Source of the DNA: Desulfotalea psychrophila LSv54
Lineage (GTDB): Bacteria; Desulfobacterota; Desulfobulbia; Desulfobulbales; Desulfocapsaceae
Assembly (NCBI RefSeq): GCF_000025945.1
Contig: NC_006138.1
Coordinates: 2,070,001 to 2,102,000, forward strand
DNA length: 32,000 nt
Direction: 5' to 3'
Position numbers and translations under genes: made by a program
Shown here: one piece after another, positions 24,895 through 31,794 of the stretch
Layout of the letters: every line of letters begins with the position of its first letter
How positions within the stretch are numbered: the first letter of the stretch is position 1
The notes under the pieces: model-generated
What the model was told of the DNA's origin: nothing
What the model saw: only the letters and a program-made list of their open reading frames with translations
Database searches by the model: none

Positions 24895-26289
24895 ATGAGC
24901 ATCAAACAAAAAAATGGTGAAGCTTCCACCATCATTTTGGTATCCATTGTCCAGTTTATCACTCCCTTTATGGCCTCCGGGGTGAGTGTTGCTCTGCCCA
25001 CAATTGGTCGCCATTTTTCTGCAAGTGCCTTTCAACTCGGTCTTGCTGAGATGATCTATATTCTGGGCGTAAGCATATTTCTGCTGGCAGCGGGGCAGTT
25101 GGCCGATATATTTGGCAGAAAGAAGATTTTTCTCATGGGTATTTGTGGCTTTATTATCTCTACCTTTGCTATTACCGCCACCAGGTCAATGGGGCAGTTT
25201 CTCCTTGTCAGGTTTGTGCAGGGGCTCAGTGTTTCCTTTATTGCCACCACCACCTTTGCCATCCTCTCCTCCGTCGTTCCGCGGGAGCGTCGGGGAAAAA
25301 GTATGGGCATTGTTCTTGCCTTTGTCTATGCAGGACTTTCAGCAGGCCCAGCTCTGGGTGGATTCATTGTCTTCCAATTTAACTGGCACTGGCTCTTTGT
25401 CTTTGCCGGCCTACTTGCCAGCTTGGCCCTTCTTCTCTGTTTAAAAACTCTCAAAGGTGAGTGGTGGGGTAGCCCCGAGCAGAAATTTGATTATCGTGGC
25501 TGTGCTGTCTATATGCTTTCTCTCTCCTTTCTGGTAGTGGGTGTTGCCGGTCACACTATGGTGGGCGGCTATGCCGCTGCCCTAGTTGTAGCCGGTATTG
25601 TTGGTCTTTCTTTCTTTTTCTGGTTGGAGACCAGGGTGAAATCACCGATGCTTGACGTTCGTATGATTTTTGCTAATCGCGTACTCTTTTTTACGGTGCT
25701 GGCTGCCCTGATCAACTATGGAGCAAGTTTTGCTATTATCTTTTTTTTCAGTCTCTATTTACAGAGCGTAAAGGGACTCTTGCCACAGGTGGCAGGCTCT
25801 GTTCTCATCCTGCAAACCCTTGTTCAATGTATTCTCTCTCCTCTCTCAGGAAAACTTGCCGATAAAATTTATCCGGGAAAAATAGCCACCCTTGGTATGT
25901 TTGTTGGCACCATCGGTCTTGGTATGGCAAGCCTGATCGAACAGGAGAGTTCCGTTGCCATGGTTGCCTTAGTCTTTGTGGTAGTGGGTGTGGGCTTTGG
26001 CCTCTTTGCCTCACCCAATATGACTATTATTATGAACTCGGTACCACAAGAGGCATATGGGCAGGCCTCAAGTCTCACAGCTACGGTACGAACTCTGGGG
26101 ATGCTCACTAGCATGGCCATAGCGTCTCTCTTGGTCTCCCATTTCATGGGCGATACTCCCATCAACAAGGAGAGCATTCCTCTCTTTATGAAGAGTTTGC
26201 AGGGGGCGATGCTGACCTTTACCCTTATGAGTCTGGTGGGTGTCTTTCTCTCCCTGGGGCGAGCCAAGGCGCCAACCAATGAGCCGTAG
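24895..26289 (+). CDS. MFS transporter, DHA2 (EmrB/QacA-like, 14 TMS) family, paralogue 1
   Basis: 464 aa, about 14 hydrophobic segments. Motif A-like GQLADIFGRKKIF. Confidence 0.9.
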   Translation: MSIKQKNGEASTIILVSIVQFITPFMASGVSVALPTIGRHFSASAFQLGLAEMIYILGVSIFLLAAGQLADIFGRKKIFLMGICGFIISTFAITATRSMGQFLLVRFVQGLSVSFIATTTFAILSSVVPRERRGKSMGIVLAFVYAGLSAGPALGGFIVFQFNWHWLFVFAGLLASLALLLCLKTLKGEWWGSPEQKFDYRGCAVYMLSLSFLVVGVAGHTMVGGYAAALVVAGIVGLSFFFWLETRVKSPMLDVRMIFANRVLFFTVLAALINYGASFAIIFFFSLYLQSVKGLLPQVAGSVLILQTLVQCILSPLSGKLADKIYPGKIATLGMFVGTIGLGMASLIEQESSVAMVALVFVVVGVGFGLFASPNMTIIMNSVPQEAYGQASSLTATVRTLGMLTSMAIASLLVSHFMGDTPINKESIPLFMKSLQGAMLTFTLMSLVGVFLSLGRAKAPTNEP

Positions 26290-26434
26290 CGCCTTGGTCA
26301 TCATCGTTTCATTTCTCAGGGTACTGTAATTTTTTTTCTCTGCCCCTCCCTCTTCTACTGAGAAAGGGCCTCTTCTTGCCACTTTCGATCAACGTTTATT
26401 GACTTTTTTTGAAAAAAAAGTACTGTTGCCCAAT

Positions 26435-26443
26435 CAACAGTTG
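26435..26443. promoter_or_regulatory. small palindrome CAAC-A-GTTG flanked by TCAACA direct repeats just upstream of marR (candidate operator)
   Basis: aaTCAACAGTTGtcgtgTCAACAatcaat read directly. No experimental or comparative support. Confidence 0.2.
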
Positions 26444-26471
26444 TCGTGTCAACAATCAATATGGGGTTTCC

Positions 26472-26912
26472 ATGGCTTTTCGAAAAAAGAGTTTAGGCGC
26501 ATGCATTGCGAAAATATTTCGTCTCCAACGTTTAGCGGCCGAGCCCCGTGCCCATGCGCTCGGCATCAGGGAGAGTCAGATCCCATTTCTGGCCTTTATT
26601 CTTGAAAGCCCGGGGATAAATCAGGATGAGCTTTCCAGACAATATTTTATTGATAAGGGTGCTACCGCCCGACAAACGGCAAAGCTTGAAGAGCAGGGGC
26701 TGATCGAAAGGGTAGTTGATCCGGATAACCGGAGAAAAAAACGGCTCTATCCAACCAGCAAGGCTCTTACTCTTGGTCCCGATTTTTACGGAATGCTTGA
26801 TGGCCTCAATGATACCTTCCTGGCGGGGTTTTCAGAAGCAGAGAAGGAACAGCTCCTCCTCCTCCTTGATAAGGTGTCTGTCAATATGTTAAAGCCATCC
26901 ATAAATGAGTAA
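26472..26912 (+). CDS. MarR-family transcriptional regulator
   Basis: 146 aa from ATG 26472 (GGGG 5 nt upstream). Winged HTH QDELSRQYFIDKGATARQTAKLEEQGLIERVVDPDNRRKKRLYPT. The TTG-started extension in the ORF track (26409) is unlikely. Confidence 0.85.
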   Translation: MAFRKKSLGACIAKIFRLQRLAAEPRAHALGIRESQIPFLAFILESPGINQDELSRQYFIDKGATARQTAKLEEQGLIERVVDPDNRRKKRLYPTSKALTLGPDFYGMLDGLNDTFLAGFSEAEKEQLLLLLDKVSVNMLKPSINE

Positions 26913-26924
26913 TAGGTTATAGAA

Positions 26925-28316
26925 ATGAGTTCTAGAGAAGAAAATGAATTTTCCACCGTCCTTCTGGTGTGTATTGTCCAGTTTATCACTCCCTTTATGG
27001 CTTCCGGGGTAGGCGTCGCCCTGCCTACAATTGGTCGGTACTTTTCCGCAAGTGCCTTTCAGCTTGGCCTGGCGGAAATGGTCTATATCCTTGGCTTAAG
27101 CACATTCCTCCTGGCAGCCGGGCAGATCTCAGATATACTTGGTCGGAAAAAGATATTTCTCACGGGGATCTGTGGCTTTATTCTCTGTACCTTCGCCCTT
27201 ACTGCCACCCGGTCCATGGAGCAGTTTCTGGTCATCAGATTCTTTCAGGGAGTCAGTGTTTCACTTATTACCACCACTACCTTTGCCATTCTTACCTCCG
27301 TCGTTCCCGCGGAGCGGCGCGGAAGAAGTATGGGGATTATTATCTCCTCCATCTACGCGGGGCTGTCAGCAGGGCCAGCCCTGGGGGGCGTTATTGTCTC
27401 TCACTTTAACTGGCAGTGGCTCTTCGTCTTTACCGGTCTGCTTGCCAGCCTGGCCCTTTTTCTCTGCTTGAAATCGCTCAAGGGTGAATGGTGGGGCAGT
27501 CCCAATCAAAGATTCGACTATCGCGGCAGCACTGTCTATATGATCTCTCTTGCCTCTCTGATCATTGGGGTAGTGGGGCAGGAAATGGTGGGGGGATATG
27601 CTCTGTACTTGGGCACAGCCGGTATTGCCGGTCTCTGCTTTTTCGGTTGGCTGGAGACGCGGGTAAAGTCACCGATGCTCAACGTTCGCATGATTCTTGG
27701 CAATCGGGTGCTCTTTTTTACGGTGCTTACCACCCTGATCAACTATGGGGCAAGCTTTGGTATTATCTTCTTCTTTAGTCTGTATCTCCAGAGTGTTAAA
27801 GGTCTTTCTCCCCAGGTGGCGGGCTCCCTTCTCATTTTGCAAACCCTTGTTCAGTGTATCCTTGCCCCTCTTTCAGGAAAACTTGCCGATAAAATTTTTC
27901 CGGGGAAAATAGCCACTCTGGGGATGATCGTCGTAACCATAGGTCTTGGTCTGGCAACCCTCATAGATAGGGAGAGCTCCATTGCTATGGTTGCCGTGAT
28001 ATTTGCTATCATGGGGGTAGGTTTTGGCCTCTTTTCCTCGCCCAATATGACTGTTATCATGAACTCGGTGCCACGGGAGGCATATGGGCAGGCCTCAAGT
28101 CTGACAGCTACGGTGCGTACCTTGGGGATGCTCAGTAGCATGGCAATCTCATCCCTGTTGCTAGCTCATTTTATGGGTCATACGCCCATCACCGAGGAGA
28201 ATATTCCCCTCTTTATGAAGAGTCTGCAAAACGGCATGCTGATCTTTACTGGTATGGGAGTGCTGGGTATCTTTTTATCACTGGGGCGGGCTAAACCTCT
28301 GGCTAATAGGGAGTAG
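26925..28316 (+). CDS. MFS transporter, DHA2 family, paralogue 2
   Basis: 463 aa, collinear with 24895..26289 over its full length (roughly three-quarters or more identical by eye). The upstream 11-mer AGTAATAGGTT is also shared. Confidence 0.9.
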   Translation: MSSREENEFSTVLLVCIVQFITPFMASGVGVALPTIGRYFSASAFQLGLAEMVYILGLSTFLLAAGQISDILGRKKIFLTGICGFILCTFALTATRSMEQFLVIRFFQGVSVSLITTTTFAILTSVVPAERRGRSMGIIISSIYAGLSAGPALGGVIVSHFNWQWLFVFTGLLASLALFLCLKSLKGEWWGSPNQRFDYRGSTVYMISLASLIIGVVGQEMVGGYALYLGTAGIAGLCFFGWLETRVKSPMLNVRMILGNRVLFFTVLTTLINYGASFGIIFFFSLYLQSVKGLSPQVAGSLLILQTLVQCILAPLSGKLADKIFPGKIATLGMIVVTIGLGLATLIDRESSIAMVAVIFAIMGVGFGLFSSPNMTVIMNSVPREAYGQASSLTATVRTLGMLSSMAISSLLLAHFMGHTPITEENIPLFMKSLQNGMLIFTGMGVLGIFLSLGRAKPLANRE

Positions 28317-28319
28317 GTT

Positions 28320-28529
28320 ATGGAGCTTGTATGTTATTGCTTTAAATATAGTGAAGAGGATGTCAGGGCTGATATAGCTCGACATGGTCGTTCAACTCTG
28401 CTGGAAAAAATCAAAGAGGCCAAGGGGCAGGGGGACTGTAACTGCGCTGAAAAAAATCCTCTGGGTAGATGATGTCTTGGCGATGTTCACCGTGTTGTGA
28501 ACAAGATTATGGCAGAGGGGAGAGGTTAG
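28320..28529 (+). CDS. small Cys-rich CxC...CxC protein (BFD/CopZ-N-terminal-like), probable selenoprotein with in-frame UGA (Sec51)
   Basis: GGGAG RBS 6 nt before ATG 28320, 4 nt after the MFS stop. MELVCYCFKYSEEDVRADIARHGRSTLLEKIKEAKGQGDCNCAEKNPLGR-[TGA 28470-28472]-CLGDVHRVVNKIMAEGRG-TAG(28527-28529). A hairpin starts 11 nt after the UGA. Without read-through the product is 50 aa (28320..28472). Confidence 0.55.
28484..28503 (+). promoter_or_regulatory. candidate bacterial SECIS hairpin
   Basis: TGTTCAC (28484-28490), loop CGTGTT, GTGAACA (28497-28503). The base of the stem is 11 nt downstream of the UGA, and the loop contains GU. Confidence 0.45.
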
Positions 28530-28778
28530 ACCCAATTATTGATAGAGTGTGGAGAGGGATCGAATCACCGGGCTACCCGCCCCCGGATGCTGGCAGAGGC
28601 ACTATCCCTCAGCATAGTAAGAGGGGGTCTAAGAGCCTCTGGGCGATGTAGAGCAAATTTTGCCAGCAAAGTTCTGGAGGGACATGGCAACAATGGCCTG
28701 CTATAGAGGTTCGTCAGCCGGTGTCTCTTAGCTGTCTTCGGTGGTGCTCAACAGTCAACCGTAGGCCGGCAGAGCCTG

Positions 28779-29276
28779 CTAATACTCATCAATATGATGC
28801 CATTCTGCATTTTCAAGCCAGTTGCCGGGGTCTGATCTTGAGACGAAGTCGACTATGTTCTGCATGATGTGTAAATGTTTTTCTTCTTCTGCTGCCAGTT
28901 GCTCAAAGATCAATTTTATCTTACCATCCTTGGTCTCTTTTGCCCTTTCTAAATAAAAGGTCTTACTCTTCTCCTCAATATCTCGGGCATGTCGATATGC
29001 ATCTATTGTTATTGCCGTTTCTGCTTGGGTAGCTTCTTTTTGCTCCCTCATTTCAATAAAGATATTTCTTACATTTTTCAGCACCTTTCTGTTTTTTACC
29101 TGCGGCACGGCACTCTGCTGACGCAGTTGGTCGATATATTTGTAGTGCTCAACTTCCTCACCGGCCAGTAATGTAAAGATCTTTTGCAGGCCTGGTGAGC
29201 TGCTTCTCTTTACCAAGTCAAGATAATGCTCTTCCCCATCTTTTTCCATCTGCATGGCAAATTCATAGACATCCAT
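28779..29276 (-). CDS. ferritin-like/rubrerythrin-family diiron four-helix-bundle protein (no rubredoxin domain)
   Basis: Paired E...ExxH motifs (EKDGEEHY / GEEVEHY and DIEEKSK / AAEEEKHLH). GGAG 7 nt before ATG 29276; the ORF track TTG at 29315 is unlikely. Confidence 0.8.
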   Translation of the reverse strand: MDVYEFAMQMEKDGEEHYLDLVKRSSSPGLQKIFTLLAGEEVEHYKYIDQLRQQSAVPQVKNRKVLKNVRNIFIEMREQKEATQAETAITIDAYRHARDIEEKSKTFYLERAKETKDGKIKLIFEQLAAEEEKHLHIMQNIVDFVSRSDPGNWLENAEWHHIDEY

Positions 29277-29381
29277 TATCAATCTCCAAACTTGAGTTTC
29301 ATCATGCGCTATCAATTAGGTGCTTGACGTTTTGTCGAGGGGGCCCGGCAAAACGTCAAGGCGCCACATTTTATGGGCCTG

Positions 29382-29573
29382 TTACTCTTTGCTAATACAC
29401 TCTACGGGGCAGGAGGCGATTGCCTCATCTAGGCAATCACTTTCCTCGTTGGCACCGTCGATAACATAGGCCTTAGTCTCATCTTCATTGAAGGCGAATA
29501 CTTCAGGGCAGGTTTCTACGCATGCTTCACAGCCGATACACTCATCTTCGTCAATTGTTACCTTTGCGGACAT
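29382..29573 (-). CDS. small [4Fe-4S]/[3Fe-4S] ferredoxin, Desulfovibrio gigas ferredoxin-like
   Basis: 63 aa. CIGCEACVETCP ... DC ... SCPVECI cysteine pattern and overall similarity to the D. gigas Fd sequence as I remember it. Confidence 0.9.
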   Translation of the reverse strand: MSAKVTIDEDECIGCEACVETCPEVFAFNEDETKAYVIDGANEESDCLDEAIASCPVECISKE

Positions 29574-30108
29574 GATACTCTCCTTGTTTTGATTTTCCCT
29601 GTTCTCTCAAATCAGATTGACCAAGATTTGGTGAAATCGGTACCCTTGCACCTGGCATGGTTCTTCTTTGAGTTTTAGCTCTTGGCTTATTAAGGGCTAG
29701 TTGTTGTTTTCTAGCTAAAATATTTCACTCATCTATAACATTATCATCCTCAACTTCAATAAAATAGGATTATTTTTACAAGTTACAATTTGCTAGGAAA
29801 ACAGGCAGTTGGATAAGCTGTTTTTGGCTGGGGAGAGGGTGGCCTTTTTGCTGAGCCGCTCCCGTGTCAGTTCGACCTGAGGGCAGGGTGGAATAGCTTC
29901 CTGTGAAAATAAAATGTCAGTCGATTGAGGTTATTATCCCTAAGGCGATGTCAGCGCTTAGATTTAATTTCAAATTGCCCAGAGCGAAAGATATAATGTC
30001 GGTGAGGCTATCTTCTCGATTTATGGGGAAGATGCTGCCCTTGTGCTCTGGATGCGGAACTTTTTACGAGGGTGAATGACTATATTTCCGCGGAGTAGGA
30101 GGAACATT

Positions 30109-30546
30109 ATGTCGCTTGTGAAATGGAATCCTTGGCGAGAGATTGAAGATGTTTTTGACCGCAATATTAAGAGAGTGCCGTCCAGGCTAAGTGATCTGGG
30201 ATTTGCTACAAGCGAAGACTGGACTCCCAAGGTGGACATCAGTGAGACCGATAAAGAGTTTATTATCAAGGCAGAGCTTCCTGAGGTAAAACGGGAAGAT
30301 GTTAAGGTGACGGTAGATAAGGGTGTTCTTACAATTTGTGGAGAGAGAAAGCAGGAAAGAGAAGAAGAGGGCAAGACGTTCCATCGAGTTGAGAGATATT
30401 ACGGTAGTTTTACCCGGAGCTTCACCCTGCCTGAAAATGTCGATGAGTCTAAGGTTGATGCCAGCTATAAGGACGGGATGCTCAATTTGAAAATTGAAAA
30501 AACTGAAGAGGCAAAACCGACAAGTATTGAGGTGGAGATTAAGTAG
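30109..30546 (+). CDS. Hsp20/alpha-crystallin family small heat-shock protein
   Basis: AGGAGG 6 nt before ATG 30109. MSLVKWNPW..., alpha-crystallin core PKVDISETDKEFIIKAELPEVKREDVKVTV, and ASYKDGMLNLKIEK. Confidence 0.92.
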   Translation: MSLVKWNPWREIEDVFDRNIKRVPSRLSDLGFATSEDWTPKVDISETDKEFIIKAELPEVKREDVKVTVDKGVLTICGERKQEREEEGKTFHRVERYYGSFTRSFTLPENVDESKVDASYKDGMLNLKIEKTEEAKPTSIEVEIK

Positions 30547-30730
30547 CTTCTCTTTTCTTTTCAGCTTTGGCTTCAAACCATGGGGCGGGGCAGAGCAGCC
30601 CCTCCTCGTGGGGCCGAGGCTTGACTATCATTTGTCAACAGTATCTTGCAATGATAAACCCACCACTGCCACTCTCATTACGGGGCGAGATTTATTGCTT
30701 CAATTCACCGTAATTCTAAGCGCATATCGT

Positions 30731-31606
30731 TTATTCTGCTCTCTTTGTTTTGGAATAGTCGCTGGGGCTGTTGCCAAAATAGCGTTTAAATTCTCGACTG
30801 AACTGGGTGCTACTCTCATAGCCCACCTCAGCTGCCGCTTCACTGACTCGCATTCTCTGCCCGATGAGGAGGGAGTGCGCTCTGCTTAAGCGGATTTTTT
30901 TGATATATTGGATGGGGGTTGAGGCGGTTATCTCCTTAAAAACACGGTGGAAGACAGAGGGACTCATGTTGACTAGCTGGGAGAGTTGTTCTACGGCAAT
31001 GCCCTGCTGATAGTGTGTATCTATGAACTTTAAGGCCCTGTCGATTTGGGAGAGCCTGCTATTGTTGCTGGCAAGGGCATAGAGAGAGGCGGCGCCCTCG
31101 GCACAGATAAGACGAAACATTAACTCCTGGATAAGTGCTTCGCCAAGGATGTGGCTTTCCAGTGGTGTTTGCAGTGCTTGCAGTAATCTTCTTAGGGTCT
31201 CGTTTATAGTAGAACTTCTCCTGCCAAGAAAAAGGCCCTGTTGCTCTTTAGCATAGGAGGGAGGGGGGCGCTGGTCGCCGAGCTGAATGATGATGTGGTT
31301 GAGCTGTTGGACATCAATGTCTACCATCATCAGGAGCACTGGCTTTTGTGTCGTCGCGCAGGTCTCGCACTCTGCAGGGATGGGCACCGTTAGTACCAGG
31401 TAATTTTCGGGATTGTACTCATATATTTTGTCATCGAGGTATACCCTCTTTGAGCCCTGACCGACAAAGAGAACTCCTTGTTTGTAGCAGAGCGGGCCCC
31501 GGGGTGAATAGGCACTTGCCTTAAATATTTTAATTCTGGAGAGGGAGGTTTCGTTGAGCCCCTCCTCCGTCGCCAGATTGTTCATCAGTTCGCCTATGGT
31601 TTGCAT
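30731..31606 (-). CDS. AraC-family transcriptional regulator (AraC_N + HTH, YqhC-like)
   Basis: C-terminal double HTH (VEQLSQLVNMSPSVFHRVFKEITASTPIQYIKKIRL...VSEAAAEVGYESSTQFSREFKRYFGNSP). GGGG 5 nt before ATG 31606; the upstream ATG 31642 lacks an RBS. Confidence 0.85.
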   Translation of the reverse strand: MQTIGELMNNLATEEGLNETSLSRIKIFKASAYSPRGPLCYKQGVLFVGQGSKRVYLDDKIYEYNPENYLVLTVPIPAECETCATTQKPVLLMMVDIDVQQLNHIIIQLGDQRPPPSYAKEQQGLFLGRRSSTINETLRRLLQALQTPLESHILGEALIQELMFRLICAEGAASLYALASNNSRLSQIDRALKFIDTHYQQGIAVEQLSQLVNMSPSVFHRVFKEITASTPIQYIKKIRLSRAHSLLIGQRMRVSEAAAEVGYESSTQFSREFKRYFGNSPSDYSKTKRAE

Positions 31607-31794
31607 GCTATCCCCTTTTATAAGATGTGATTCTTTCACCATAACAGGTCGGCCCGGTAATGCGATTATTTATAGGGGCAGTAGGATTAGGCATGAAAAT
31701 GATGGCTTTGTGTCTTCTCTTTTTTTCAAATTTATTTAAATATTAGCTGATGTAACAAAACATGTAGATTGCGGCTAAGCAGCTCTCTATTTAT

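What the first reader, a model, noticed from the sequence alone, without database searches (positions are those of the whole stretch)
28320..28529. Unannotated small CxC protein whose TGA is probably selenocysteine (U-C pair, SECIS-like hairpin at +11)
A 50-codon ORF, below the ORF-track cutoff, starts 4 nt after the second MFS gene behind a good RBS. Its TGA (28470-28472) is followed in frame by TGT and 17 more sense codons up to TAG 28527, giving ...NPLGR-U-CLGDVHRVVNKIMAEGRG. A 7-bp hairpin with a GU-containing hexaloop starts 11 nt after the UGA. That is the spacing described for the minimal E. coli fdhF SECIS. Deltaproteobacterial sulfate reducers are selenoprotein-rich. My recollection is that Cys-containing relatives of these small VCYCF...C.C...NP.G proteins continue through a C-C-L-G-x-V motif, which would place Cys opposite this UGA. 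Eighteen open codons alone are not significant, so this rests on the combination of signals.
Basis: partly seen in the sequence, partly recalled or inferred. Interest (0 to 1): 0.72.

Follow-up and report, generated by a model that had tools for sequence, protein, structure and literature searches.

The report
Small iron-sulfur selenoprotein, annotated truncated

Summary
ORF 28320-28472 ends at TGA. The frame stays open through TGT and 17 more codons to TAG 28527-28529. A 7-bp hairpin with loop CGUGUU starts 11 nt after the TGA. The window is Desulfotalea psychrophila LSv54. RefSeq holds the gene as a 50-aa '(2Fe-2S)-binding protein' (WP_041277851.1).

On its own the hairpin is not significant. 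The comparative evidence decides the case. A DNA pattern anchored only upstream of codon 48 retrieved 120 loci from different species. Codon 51 is TGA in 97 and TGY (Cys) in 20. After the TGA nearly all continue in frame with C-L-x-D-V-R/H-x-V-V. Synonymous sites in the hairpin arms are almost frozen, and one pair covaries (CG 71, UA 16, UG 8, broken 0). RNAalifold finds the same helix independently, and Cys forms lack it. Of 150 database representatives, 128 stop at residue 50.

The gene encodes a 69-aa BFD/CopZ-N-terminal-like [2Fe-2S] selenoprotein with a G-x-U-C motif. This family is already listed in selenoproteome surveys and reviews (2016, 2022, 2026). The function, metal or metalloid redox handling, is inferred from mer and ars neighbours in related loci. 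The MarR-MFS context here is not conserved.

The parts
28308..28313 (+). Shine-Dalgarno-like AGGGAG, 6 nt upstream of the ATG and inside the 3' end of the MFS gene. The position suggests translational coupling.
   Evidence: Read directly from the sequence.
28320..28469 (+). Codons 1-50 of the selenoprotein gene (MELVCYCF...NPLGR). Conserved Cys are C5, C7, C40 and C42, followed by N46-P47.
   Evidence: 100% identical to RefSeq WP_041277851.1. Pfam Fer2_BFD, NCBIfam NF047645 and NF045877 match partially.
28470..28472 (+). In-frame TGA, read as selenocysteine (residue 51). It is the U of the G-R-U-C motif.
   Evidence: 97 of 120 related loci have TGA here and 20 have TGY. It aligns with Cys118 of A. 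fulgidus CopZ-NT, PDB 2hu9.
28473..28529 (+). Codons 52-69 (CLGDVHRVVNKIMAEGRG) and the true stop TAG at 28527-28529. C52 is invariant in the family.
   Evidence: The real tail adds 9-15 bits to the NCBIfam matches, whereas shuffled tails score no higher than the single added Cys51 alone (37.3 and 25.6 bits).
28484..28503 (+). Bacterial SECIS stem-loop. The 5' arm is 28484-28490, the apical loop CGUGUU is 28491-28496, and the 3' arm is 28497-28503. It starts 11 nt after the UGA, and 18 nt separate the UGA from the loop.
   Evidence: The same helix is predicted by RNAalifold on 96 TGA-form sequences. Pair counts and covariation are, wobble constraint, and absence from Cys forms.
26409..28316 (+). 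Upstream genes on the same strand: a MarR-family regulator (26409-26912) and a DHA2/EmrB-type MFS efflux permease (26925-28316). This is probably the operon that carries the small gene. A 77%-identical MFS paralogue lies at 24895-26289.
   Evidence: Pfam and NCBIfam, and BLASTP of the paralogues. The context is not conserved in related loci.

Best explanation
Positions 28320-28529 are one gene for a 69-residue selenoprotein. The UGA at 28470-28472 is recoded to selenocysteine by SelB and tRNA-Sec. Recoding is directed by the stem-loop at 28484-28503, which lies inside the coding sequence 11 nt downstream of the UGA.

The protein is the stand-alone short form of the BFD-like domain found in the N-terminal part of Archaeoglobus CopZ. 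It carries C5-x-C7, C40-x-C42 and the vicinal pair U51-C52 (motif G-x-U-C).

Shown here: the recoding signals, their conservation, and the family relationship.

Inferred: the domain binds a [2Fe-2S] cluster. The Sec sits in or next to the cluster ligand sphere. There it acts as a redox or metal-binding selenolate that handles a soft metal or metalloid (Hg, As, Cu) or a thiol-reactive compound. In this genome it may do so in concert with the MarR-controlled MFS exporter, whose stop codon lies 3 nt before its start codon.
For: 1. Unbiased comparative test. A pattern that specifies only CYCF..D...D..CxC...NP, and nothing from codon 48 on, found 120 loci in distinct species genomes. Codon 51 is TGA in 97, TGC in 15 and TGT in 5. 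The remaining three are 2 others and 1 contig end.
2. The frame after the TGA is open for a median of 22 codons, and only 1 of 95 loci has fewer than 10. In the other two frames 26/93 and 52/93 have fewer than 10. The residues C-L-x-D-V-R/H-x-V-V are conserved.
3. The real window tail raises the NCBIfam scores from 33.1 to 48.3 bits (NF047645) and from 22 to 34.7 bits (NF045877). Seven shuffled tails give 35-39 and 25-28 bits.
4. SECIS. RNAalifold independently predicts the helix at nt 16-21/28-33. 92.3% of cells are paired, against 31-63% for slid registers. Five of 7 pairs carry double changes, and 0 of 500 shuffles reach the observed covariation score. The pair between the Val wobble base and the first base of Asp/Asn is CG 71, UA 16, UG 8, broken 0.
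5. Synonymous-site entropy is about 1.7-1.9 bits at 4-fold sites upstream. It falls to 0.82, 0.24 and 0.23 bits at V56, R57 and V60.
6. 72 of 96 Sec forms have all 6 core pairs, against 0 of 20 Cys forms.
7. The window's element meets the published bSECIS constraints (PMC13188914, Fig. 2). The stem is 7 bp and the loop 6 nt. G is at loop position 2 followed by U. 18 nt separate the UGA from the loop. The MFE of nt 4-48 is -11.2 kcal/mol.
8. The host decodes Sec (PMC1794560; PMC5029168 Table S2).
9. UGA is otherwise an ordinary stop here: 12 of 28 long ORFs in the window end with it.
10. The family is listed as a selenoprotein with exactly this GxUC motif (PMC13188914; PMC9312934; PMC5029168 Table S3).
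11. Function hints. U51-C52 aligns with Cys118-Cys119 of the [2Fe-2S]/Zn CopZ N-terminal domain, 2hu9. That protein reduces Cu(II) (PMC7558416). Recurrent neighbours in related loci are MerT (18 loci), MerR (15), a MerA-like flavoprotein (12), ArsC (9), Acr3 (9), ArsR (7) and Thioredoxin_3 (6).
Against: - There is no direct evidence of selenium incorporation or of expression.
- On this single sequence the hairpin is unremarkable: z = 0.17, 5.7% of synonymous recodings match it, and the isolated stem has -6.8 kcal/mol.
- The window's loop (CGUGUU) is the minority variant. 13 of 96 sequences have U at loop nt 24. The majority form is C-[A/G]GGU-G.
- No Rfam family matches.
- selA, selB and selC are not in the window, so the Sec machinery rests on the literature.
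- The functional part is weak. Only a minority of related loci carry mer or ars neighbours, and none of those genes is in this window.
- The MarR-MFS context is essentially unique to this genome. Only 1 of 120 loci has a weak MFS hit, at 25% identity.
- Which cysteines bind the cluster could not be checked, because the structure paper was not available.
Confidence: 0.9

Rival explanations
1. The TGA is a genuine stop. The functional product is the 50-residue protein as annotated in RefSeq, and the open frame and hairpin downstream are coincidental.
For: This is how RefSeq, and 128 of 150 database representatives, call the gene. The single-sequence statistics for the hairpin are not significant. 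When selenium is scarce, termination at the UGA probably does yield some 50-aa product.
Against: A 50-aa product would lack the invariant Cys52. The downstream frame is open and conserved at the amino-acid level in about 95 independent species. Cys-containing homologues read straight through with C-C-L-G-x-V. The RNA helix shows covariation and synonymous-site constraint.
Confidence: 0.05
2. The UGA is read through, but not as selenocysteine. It could be suppressed as Trp or Cys by a near-cognate tRNA, or this copy could be a decaying gene in this genome.
For: Five metagenomic representatives carry W at position 51 and two carry R. A few related loci are visibly damaged: L109 has a 1-nt insertion, L027 has AGA plus a frameshift, and L052 has GGA.
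Against: The W entries are most simply gene calls that translated TGA as Trp; their DNA was not examined. The same position is TGA in 97 of 120 loci, followed by the same motif. The element after the UGA has the form and spacing of a bacterial SECIS, and it is missing from Cys forms. The window's copy has an intact frame, all conserved Cys and all 7 stem pairs. The host is Sec-decoding.
Confidence: 0.03
3. Rival at the level of function: the protein is a bacterioferritin-associated ferredoxin (Bfd), as one RefSeq name says. It would pass electrons to a ferritin-like protein to release iron, and would not handle toxic metals or metalloids.
For: Pfam Fer2_BFD is the only Pfam match. A rubrerythrin/ferritin-like gene (28779-29315, minus strand) and a small 4Fe-4S ferredoxin lie just downstream.
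Against: The Fer2_BFD score is below Pfam's gathering threshold (23.4 and 21.7 bits against 26). The Cys pattern is CxC...CxC...UC, whereas Bfd has CxC...CxxC. The best-scoring NCBIfam and PDB matches are CopZ-N-terminal-like. The ferritin-like neighbour is convergent and has no homologue near any of the 120 related loci. mer and ars genes recur there instead.
Confidence: 0.1

Closest known systems
[quoted passage not shown]
   Same: The domain type is the same, and so is the Sec motif (G49-R50-U51-C52). The UGA lies about 18 codons before the real stop, and the host group is deltaproteobacteria. The window gene fits this family in every respect I could test.
   Different: Nothing structural differs. 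The D. psychrophila copy is still truncated in RefSeq. I could not confirm that this gene is among the 16 selenoproteins counted for the strain.
Csac_0668 family 2Fe-2S cluster-binding (seleno)protein. This is NCBIfam NF045877 'CopZ_Nterm_CU', called 'form 2' with motif CU.
   Same: The C-terminal BFD-like module is homologous (E = 1.6e-8 over model positions 100-160). Sec lies within the same vicinal Cys-Cys pair.
   Different: The score is 34.7 bits against a cutoff of 190. The window protein lacks the roughly 100-residue N-terminal part of the model. Going by the family motifs (UC here, CU in form 2), Sec appears to be the first residue of the pair here and the second in form 2.
Archaeoglobus fulgidus CopZ N-terminal domain (PDB 2hu9) and NCBIfam NF047645 'CopZ_Nterm_CC'.
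   Same: C5/C7 align with Cys75/Cys77, C42 with Cys109, and U51-C52 with Cys118-Cys119. The NP-x-G-R-C-C motif is shared. That domain binds [2Fe-2S] and mediates Cu(II) reduction (PMC7558416).
   Different: It is all-Cys. It has an extra N-terminal Zn subdomain and a C-terminal HMA copper-chaperone domain, both absent here. It lacks the equivalent of C40. The NF047645 score is 48.3 bits against a cutoff of 100.
Minimal E. coli fdhF SECIS. By my recollection of Liu et al. 1998 (not checked here), it is an upper stem-loop 11 nt after the UGA with G-U in the loop.
   Same: It is a short stem-loop inside the coding sequence. The window's stem starts 11 nt after the UGA. The family-majority loop contains GGU and the window's loop contains GU. 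It meets the general bSECIS model quoted in PMC13188914.
   Different: The sequence is unrelated to fdhF. No bulged U is evident. The window carries the minority hexaloop CGUGUU. Function with D. psychrophila SelB has not been tested.
Bacterioferritin-associated ferredoxin (Bfd, Pfam PF04324).
   Same: It is a small protein of about 60-70 aa with an N-terminal CxC and the helix-rich BFD-like [2Fe-2S] fold family.
   Different: The score is below Pfam's gathering threshold. The second Cys pair is CxC, not CxxC, and there is an additional U-C pair. No conserved linkage to bacterioferritin genes was found.

Membership tests
Bacterial selenoprotein gene (Sec-UGA plus bSECIS) | The in-frame UGA aligns with Cys in homologues. 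| tested here: met
   Codon 51 is TGA in 97 loci and TGY in 20 of 120 upstream-anchored loci. CC forms among the proteins include P0005, P0103, P0150 and P0151.
Bacterial selenoprotein gene (Sec-UGA plus bSECIS) | The reading frame downstream of the UGA is open and conserved at the protein level. | tested here: met
   The median open length is 22 codons, and 1 of 95 loci has fewer than 10. C52 is invariant and L-x-D-V-R/H-x-V-V is conserved. Tail-shuffle control.
Bacterial selenoprotein gene (Sec-UGA plus bSECIS) | A stem-loop meets the bSECIS model of PMC13188914: loop 3-9 nt, stem 4-16 bp, G in the first two loop positions, 16-37 nt from the UGA to the loop, and MFE <= -7.5 kcal/mol. | tested here: met
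   In the window the stem is 7 bp, the loop is CGUGUU, the spacing is 18 nt, and the MFE of nt 4-48 is -11.2. The isolated hairpin has only -6.8.
Bacterial selenoprotein gene (Sec-UGA plus bSECIS) | The host genome encodes selA, selB, selC (tRNA-Sec) and selD. | not testable with these tools
The literature lists SelD and 12 (later 16) selenoproteins for D. psychrophila LSv54 (PMC1794560; PMC5029168).
Bacterial selenoprotein gene (Sec-UGA plus bSECIS) | Selenium is physically incorporated at the UGA position. | not testable with these tools
   This needs 75Se labelling or mass spectrometry.
CopZ-family (2Fe-2S)-binding selenoprotein, form 1 (GxUC) | A G-x-U-C motif lies near the C-terminus of a CopZ-like/BFD-like domain (cd10141). 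| tested here: met
   G49-R50-U51-C52. The domain relationship rests on NF047645 at E = 1.1e-12, Fer2_BFD at E = 8e-5 to 3e-4, and 2hu9 at profile E = 4e-4. cd10141 itself could not be searched.
Csac_0668 family, NF045877 (form 2, CU) | A full-length match above NCBI's cutoff (190 bits) with Sec as the second residue of the pair. | tested here: not met
   34.7 bits. Only model positions 100-160 of 161 are matched. The order here is U-C.
CopZ_Nterm_CC metallochaperone, NF047645 / A. fulgidus CopZ-NT | An N-terminal Zn-binding subdomain plus the [2Fe-2S] subdomain, scoring at least 100 bits. | tested here: not met
   48.3 bits. Only model positions 86-137 of 138 are matched. The ORF starts 4 residues before CYC, directly after the MFS stop codon. 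The long forms in related loci are the Cys forms.
Bfd, bacterioferritin-associated ferredoxin (PF04324) | A Pfam score at or above the gathering threshold, and a CxC...CxxC ligand pattern. | tested here: not met
   23.4 and 21.7 bits against 26. The pattern is CxC...CxC...UC.
[2Fe-2S] cluster protein | Four conserved Cys ligands and a bound cluster. | tested here: inconclusive
   C5, C7, C42 and C52 are invariant, and C40 is nearly so. They align with the Cys of 2hu9. Which four are ligands, and whether a cluster is bound, was not testable.

The most novel reading that the evidence does not exclude
The short, stand-alone form of this domain is an almost obligately selenium-dependent module. 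Among short forms sampled, 95 use Sec and 1 uses Cys. The Sec is either itself a ligand of the [2Fe-2S] cluster or forms a selenolate/thiolate site one residue from a ligand, paired with C52 or C40. Such a site could couple one-electron chemistry at the cluster to binding or reduction of Hg, As or Cu species, and the module would then act as an accessory of mer-type, ars-type or efflux systems. A naturally Sec-ligated or Sec-gated Fe-S cluster would, as far as I know, be new biochemistry.
Probability: 0.2. Interest if true: 0.55.

Novelty: already known. Interest (0 to 1): 0.27.

Why it matters
The practical consequence is an annotation correction. WP_041277851.1 should be a 69-residue selenoprotein.

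The same error affects most public entries of this family. 128 of the 150 best-scoring database representatives stop at the UGA. No NCBIfam model covers the short form above its cutoff.

The data gathered here add three things to what I found in the literature:
- The TGA form occurs in at least 97 species genomes, whereas the 2016 survey reported 11 organisms.
- The short form almost always uses Sec.
- The family has a very uniform SECIS that overlaps the conserved V-R-x-V-V-D codons.

The recurrent mer and ars neighbours give a testable lead on what this uncharacterised selenoprotein does.

Tried and rejected
- A word-indexed protein search with the read-through product returned only the protein itself.
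- My first DNA pattern had six N too many and matched nothing, not even the window. The corrected pattern worked.
- An Rfam scan of 28200-28700 gave no SECIS hit.
- Single-sequence folding and a synonymous-recoding null were not significant. The case therefore rests on comparative data.
- I tested whether the MarR-MFS-MFS context is conserved. It is not: 1 weak MFS hit and 0 MarR hits in 120 loci.
- I tested whether Sec forms are fused to an upstream HMA domain. No in-frame M.C..C motif was found in the loci, although some database representatives carry HMA-like N-terminal extensions.
- No terminator-like site was found after the gene.
- Both reviews credit the GOS paper for this family. That paper does not name the family in its text or in the supplements held here.
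- The Sazinsky 2007 structure paper and the two Haft papers were not available. The cluster-ligand assignment in 2hu9 is therefore unverified.
- Structure prediction was not run.

Full report
**What is in the sequence**

- The second MFS gene ends with TAG at 28314-28316.
- AGGGAG lies at 28308-28313, and ATG 28320 opens a 50-codon frame: MELVCYCFKYSEEDVRADIARHGRSTLLEKIKEAKGQGDCNCAEKNPLGR.
- That frame stops at TGA 28470-28472.
- The same frame continues with TGT and 17 more sense codons (CLGDVHRVVNKIMAEGRG) to TAG 28527-28529.
- TGTTCAC (28484-28490) pairs with GTGAACA (28497-28503) around the loop CGTGTT. The stem begins 11 nt after the TGA.

The 50-aa product is 100% identical to a protein of Desulfotalea psychrophila on a 3,523,383-bp contig. 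It is RefSeq WP_041277851.1, named '(2Fe-2S)-binding protein' or 'bacterioferritin-associated ferredoxin'. The ORF is therefore annotated publicly, but cut at the TGA.

**Is it more than chance in this sequence alone?**

No.
- The 66-nt region folds no better than shuffles, with z = 0.17.
- The isolated hairpin has -6.8 kcal/mol.
- The six core pairs arise in 5.7% of random synonymous recodings of the same peptide.
- Rfam has no match.

**Family relationship**
- With U replaced by C, the 69-aa product matches NCBIfam NF047645 (CopZ_Nterm_CC) at 48.3 bits. It matches NF045877 ('Csac_0668 family 2Fe-2S cluster-binding (seleno)protein') at 34.7 bits.
- The 50-aa form scores 33.1 and 22 bits against the same two models.
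- With X at position 51 the tail alone still adds about 9 bits. Seven shuffled tails give 35-39 and 25-28 bits, no more than the 37.3 and 25.6 bits obtained by adding Cys51 alone.
- Both matches cover only the C-terminal third of the models and are far below the curated cutoffs of 100 and 190 bits.
- Pfam gives Fer2_BFD just under its gathering threshold.
- In the PDB the only relative is the N-terminal Zn/[2Fe-2S] domain of A. fulgidus CopZ, 2hu9. The single-sequence E-value is 0.019 and the family-profile E-value is 4e-4.
- In that alignment C5/C7 match Cys75/Cys77, C42 matches Cys109, and U51-C52 match Cys118-Cys119.

**Protein homologues**

An exhaustive HMMER search with the 50-aa ORF found 350 representatives. 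I classified the best 150 by what follows the NP-x-G-x motif.

| Category | Count |
|---|---|
| End at or before residue 50, whatever their N-terminal length | 128 |
| Continue with C-C | 7 |
| Continue with W-C | 5 |
| Continue with R-C | 2 |
| Frameshifted or other at positions 51-52 | 5 |
| Motif not found | 3 |

The W-C entries are most simply TGA translated as Trp by the gene caller. Their DNA was not examined. The continuing sequences share C-L-G/A-D-V-R-x-V-V with the window's tail. This is the pattern expected for a selenoprotein family that gene callers truncate.

**Decisive DNA test**

I scanned one genome per species with a pattern that fixes only CYCF, D14, D18, CxC and N/H-P. It specifies nothing from codon 48 onward (after a mistyped first attempt).
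- Codon 51 is TGA in 97, TGC in 15 and TGT in 5. One locus has AGA with a frameshift, one has GGA, and one is a contig end.
- After the TGA the frame is open for a median of 22 codons, and only 1 of 95 loci has fewer than 10. In the other two frames 26/93 and 52/93 have fewer than 10.
- TGA forms are almost all short proteins from Desulfobacterota. Isolates include Desulfoluna limicola, Desulfopila sp., Desulfovibrio desulfuricans, Nitratidesulfovibrio liaohensis and Malonomonas rubra. The Olavius Delta-1 symbiont also has it.
- Cys forms are almost all long proteins with the N-terminal Zn-ribbon-like subdomain. They come from Acidobacteriota, Elusimicrobiota, Nitrospirales and others.
- Among short forms the ratio is 95 Sec to 1 Cys (L110).

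**The SECIS**

I aligned 96 TGA-form sequences, window included, from the TGA to +45 nt. RNAalifold predicts one helix, nt 16-21 with 28-33 counting the T of TGA as 1. This is the window's hairpin.

For the 7-pair version:
- 92.3% of cells pair, against 31-63% in slid registers.
- Five pairs carry changes on both sides.
- None of 500 shuffles reaches the observed covariation score.

The pair between the wobble base of Val56 and the first base of residue 61 (Asp or Asn) is CG in 71 sequences, UA in 16 and UG in 8. It is never broken. A few sequences (L081, L048, L053) keep the helix with different letters.

Synonymous sites are nearly frozen in the arms.
- GTY makes up 96 of 96 at Val56.
- Of 77 Arg57 codons, 74 end in C.
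- Of 80 Val60 codons, 77 are GTG.
- Four-fold sites upstream carry 1.7-1.9 bits of entropy. These three sites carry 0.82, 0.24 and 0.23 bits.

All six core pairs are present in 72 of 96 Sec forms and in 0 of 20 Cys forms.

The majority loop is C-[A/G]GGU-G. The window has the minority CGUGUU form, shared by 13 of 96 sequences. Its stem is GUUCAC/GUGAAC, so an A-U pair stands where most sequences have G-U.

The window's element meets the published bacterial SECIS constraints (PMC13188914, Fig. 2). UGA is not reassigned in this genome: 12 of 28 long ORFs in the window end with it.

**Host competence**

No sel gene or tRNA-Sec lies in the window. The literature lists SelD and 12 selenoproteins for D. 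psychrophila (PMC1794560). A later survey lists 16 (PMC5029168 Table S2).

**What is already known**
- Peng et al. [quoted passage not shown] They count 11 organisms and 12 genes (Table S3).
[quoted passage not shown] They also list 'form 2', the Csac_0668 family with motif CU.
- The window's G-R-U-C is form 1.
- The 2006 list of 12 selenoproteins for this strain does not include it. I could not establish whether it is among the later 16.

The kind is therefore known. What remains open is the public annotation, for this gene and for most of its relatives.

**Function (inferred)**
- The invariant residues are C5, C7, C42 and C52, plus C40 in nearly all sequences. Position 51 is Sec or Cys.
- Two ligand sets are possible. 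In the CopZ-NT-like set, C5, C7, C42 and C52 bind the cluster, which leaves C40 and U51 beside it. In the Bfd-like set, C5, C7, C40 and C42 bind it, which leaves a free vicinal U51-C52 pair.
- Going by the family motifs (UC in form 1, CU in form 2), Sec appears to occupy the neighbouring residue of the pair in form 2. This suggests the pair is a reactive site and not a purely structural one.
- The A. fulgidus domain mediates Cu(II) reduction (PMC7558416).

Recurrent neighbours in the 120 related loci:

| Neighbour | Loci |
|---|---|
| MerT | 18 |
| MerR | 15 |
| MerA-like flavoprotein | 12 |
| LMW-PTP ArsC | 9 |
| Acr3 | 9 |
| TauE | 8 |
| ArsR | 7 |
| Thioredoxin_3 | 6 |

In the window the gene instead follows a MarR regulator and a DHA2-type MFS exporter. 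That context is not conserved.

My best guess is a cluster-coupled selenolate that handles soft metals, metalloids or thiol-reactive compounds. Confidence in this functional part is about 0.4.

**Verdict**

Confidence that this UGA encodes Sec is about 0.9. The family is already catalogued, so the finding is a correct re-annotation with modest incremental facts.

Noticed in passing
window 24895-26289 and 26925-28316 (+), with 26409-26912 between them: Two tandem DHA2/EmrB-type MFS efflux genes are 77% identical, with a MarR-family regulator between them. Only the second is followed by the small selenoprotein gene, and no second CYCF-type ORF exists in the window.
   Followed up: partly
window 1509-24633, minus strand: A long co-directional cluster encodes several ketoacyl-synthase-like proteins, an SDR reductase, LolA-like and MMPL proteins and acyltransferases. 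It also encodes a GT2+DUF2062 protein, a B12-binding radical SAM enzyme, a radical SAM/SPASM enzyme, an AMP-binding enzyme, a CrtI-like desaturase and an ABC-2 permease. It looks like a lipid or aryl-polyene-type biosynthesis and export locus. Only Pfam and NCBIfam scans were done.
   Followed up: partly
window 28779-31642: Downstream lie stress-type genes. They are a rubrerythrin/ferritin-like protein (28779-29315, -), a 63-aa single-cluster 4Fe-4S ferredoxin (29382-29573, -), Hsp20 (30076-30546, +) and an AraC-family regulator (30731-31642, -). No homologue of the two that were searched for (the ferritin-like protein and the ferredoxin) is found near the small gene in the 120 related loci.
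   Followed up: partly
L109:4240-4287, L027, L052 (related loci): Some copies look damaged. L109 has a 1-nt insertion right after TGATG. L027 has AGA at codon 51 followed by a frameshift. L052 has GGA at codon 51 with a degraded tail. These may be sequencing errors or pseudogenes.
   Followed up: no
proteins P0004, P0023, P0025, P0078, P0087; P0002, P0050; P0013, P0104, P0147: Some database representatives have W or R at the Sec position. Others switch to the +1 frame just before it (..GS-MMPWGRSP..). That frame corresponds to the window's overlapping ORF 28469-28651 (MMSWRCSP..). Gene calls that translate TGA as Trp, or single-base errors, seem the likely causes. This was not checked at the DNA level.
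   Followed up: no
L030 versus L035; L018, L062, L120: L030 (a Desulfobacterales MAG) and L035 (a Sedimentisphaerales MAG from the same study) carry identical sequence over the compared stretch, the gene and the 75 nt after codon 51. Short contigs with the deltaproteobacterial-type TGA form are also binned as Nitrososphaeraceae, Phycisphaerae and Spirochaetota. Mis-binning is likely. The apparent spread of the Sec form outside Desulfobacterota should be treated with care.
   Followed up: no
literature (PMC9312934, PMC13188914 versus PMC2398784): Both reviews credit the 2008 GOS paper for the CopZ-family (2Fe-2S) selenoproteins. Neither the main text of that paper nor its held supplements mention the family, CopZ, 2Fe-2S or Desulfotalea. 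The original description may be elsewhere.
   Followed up: partly
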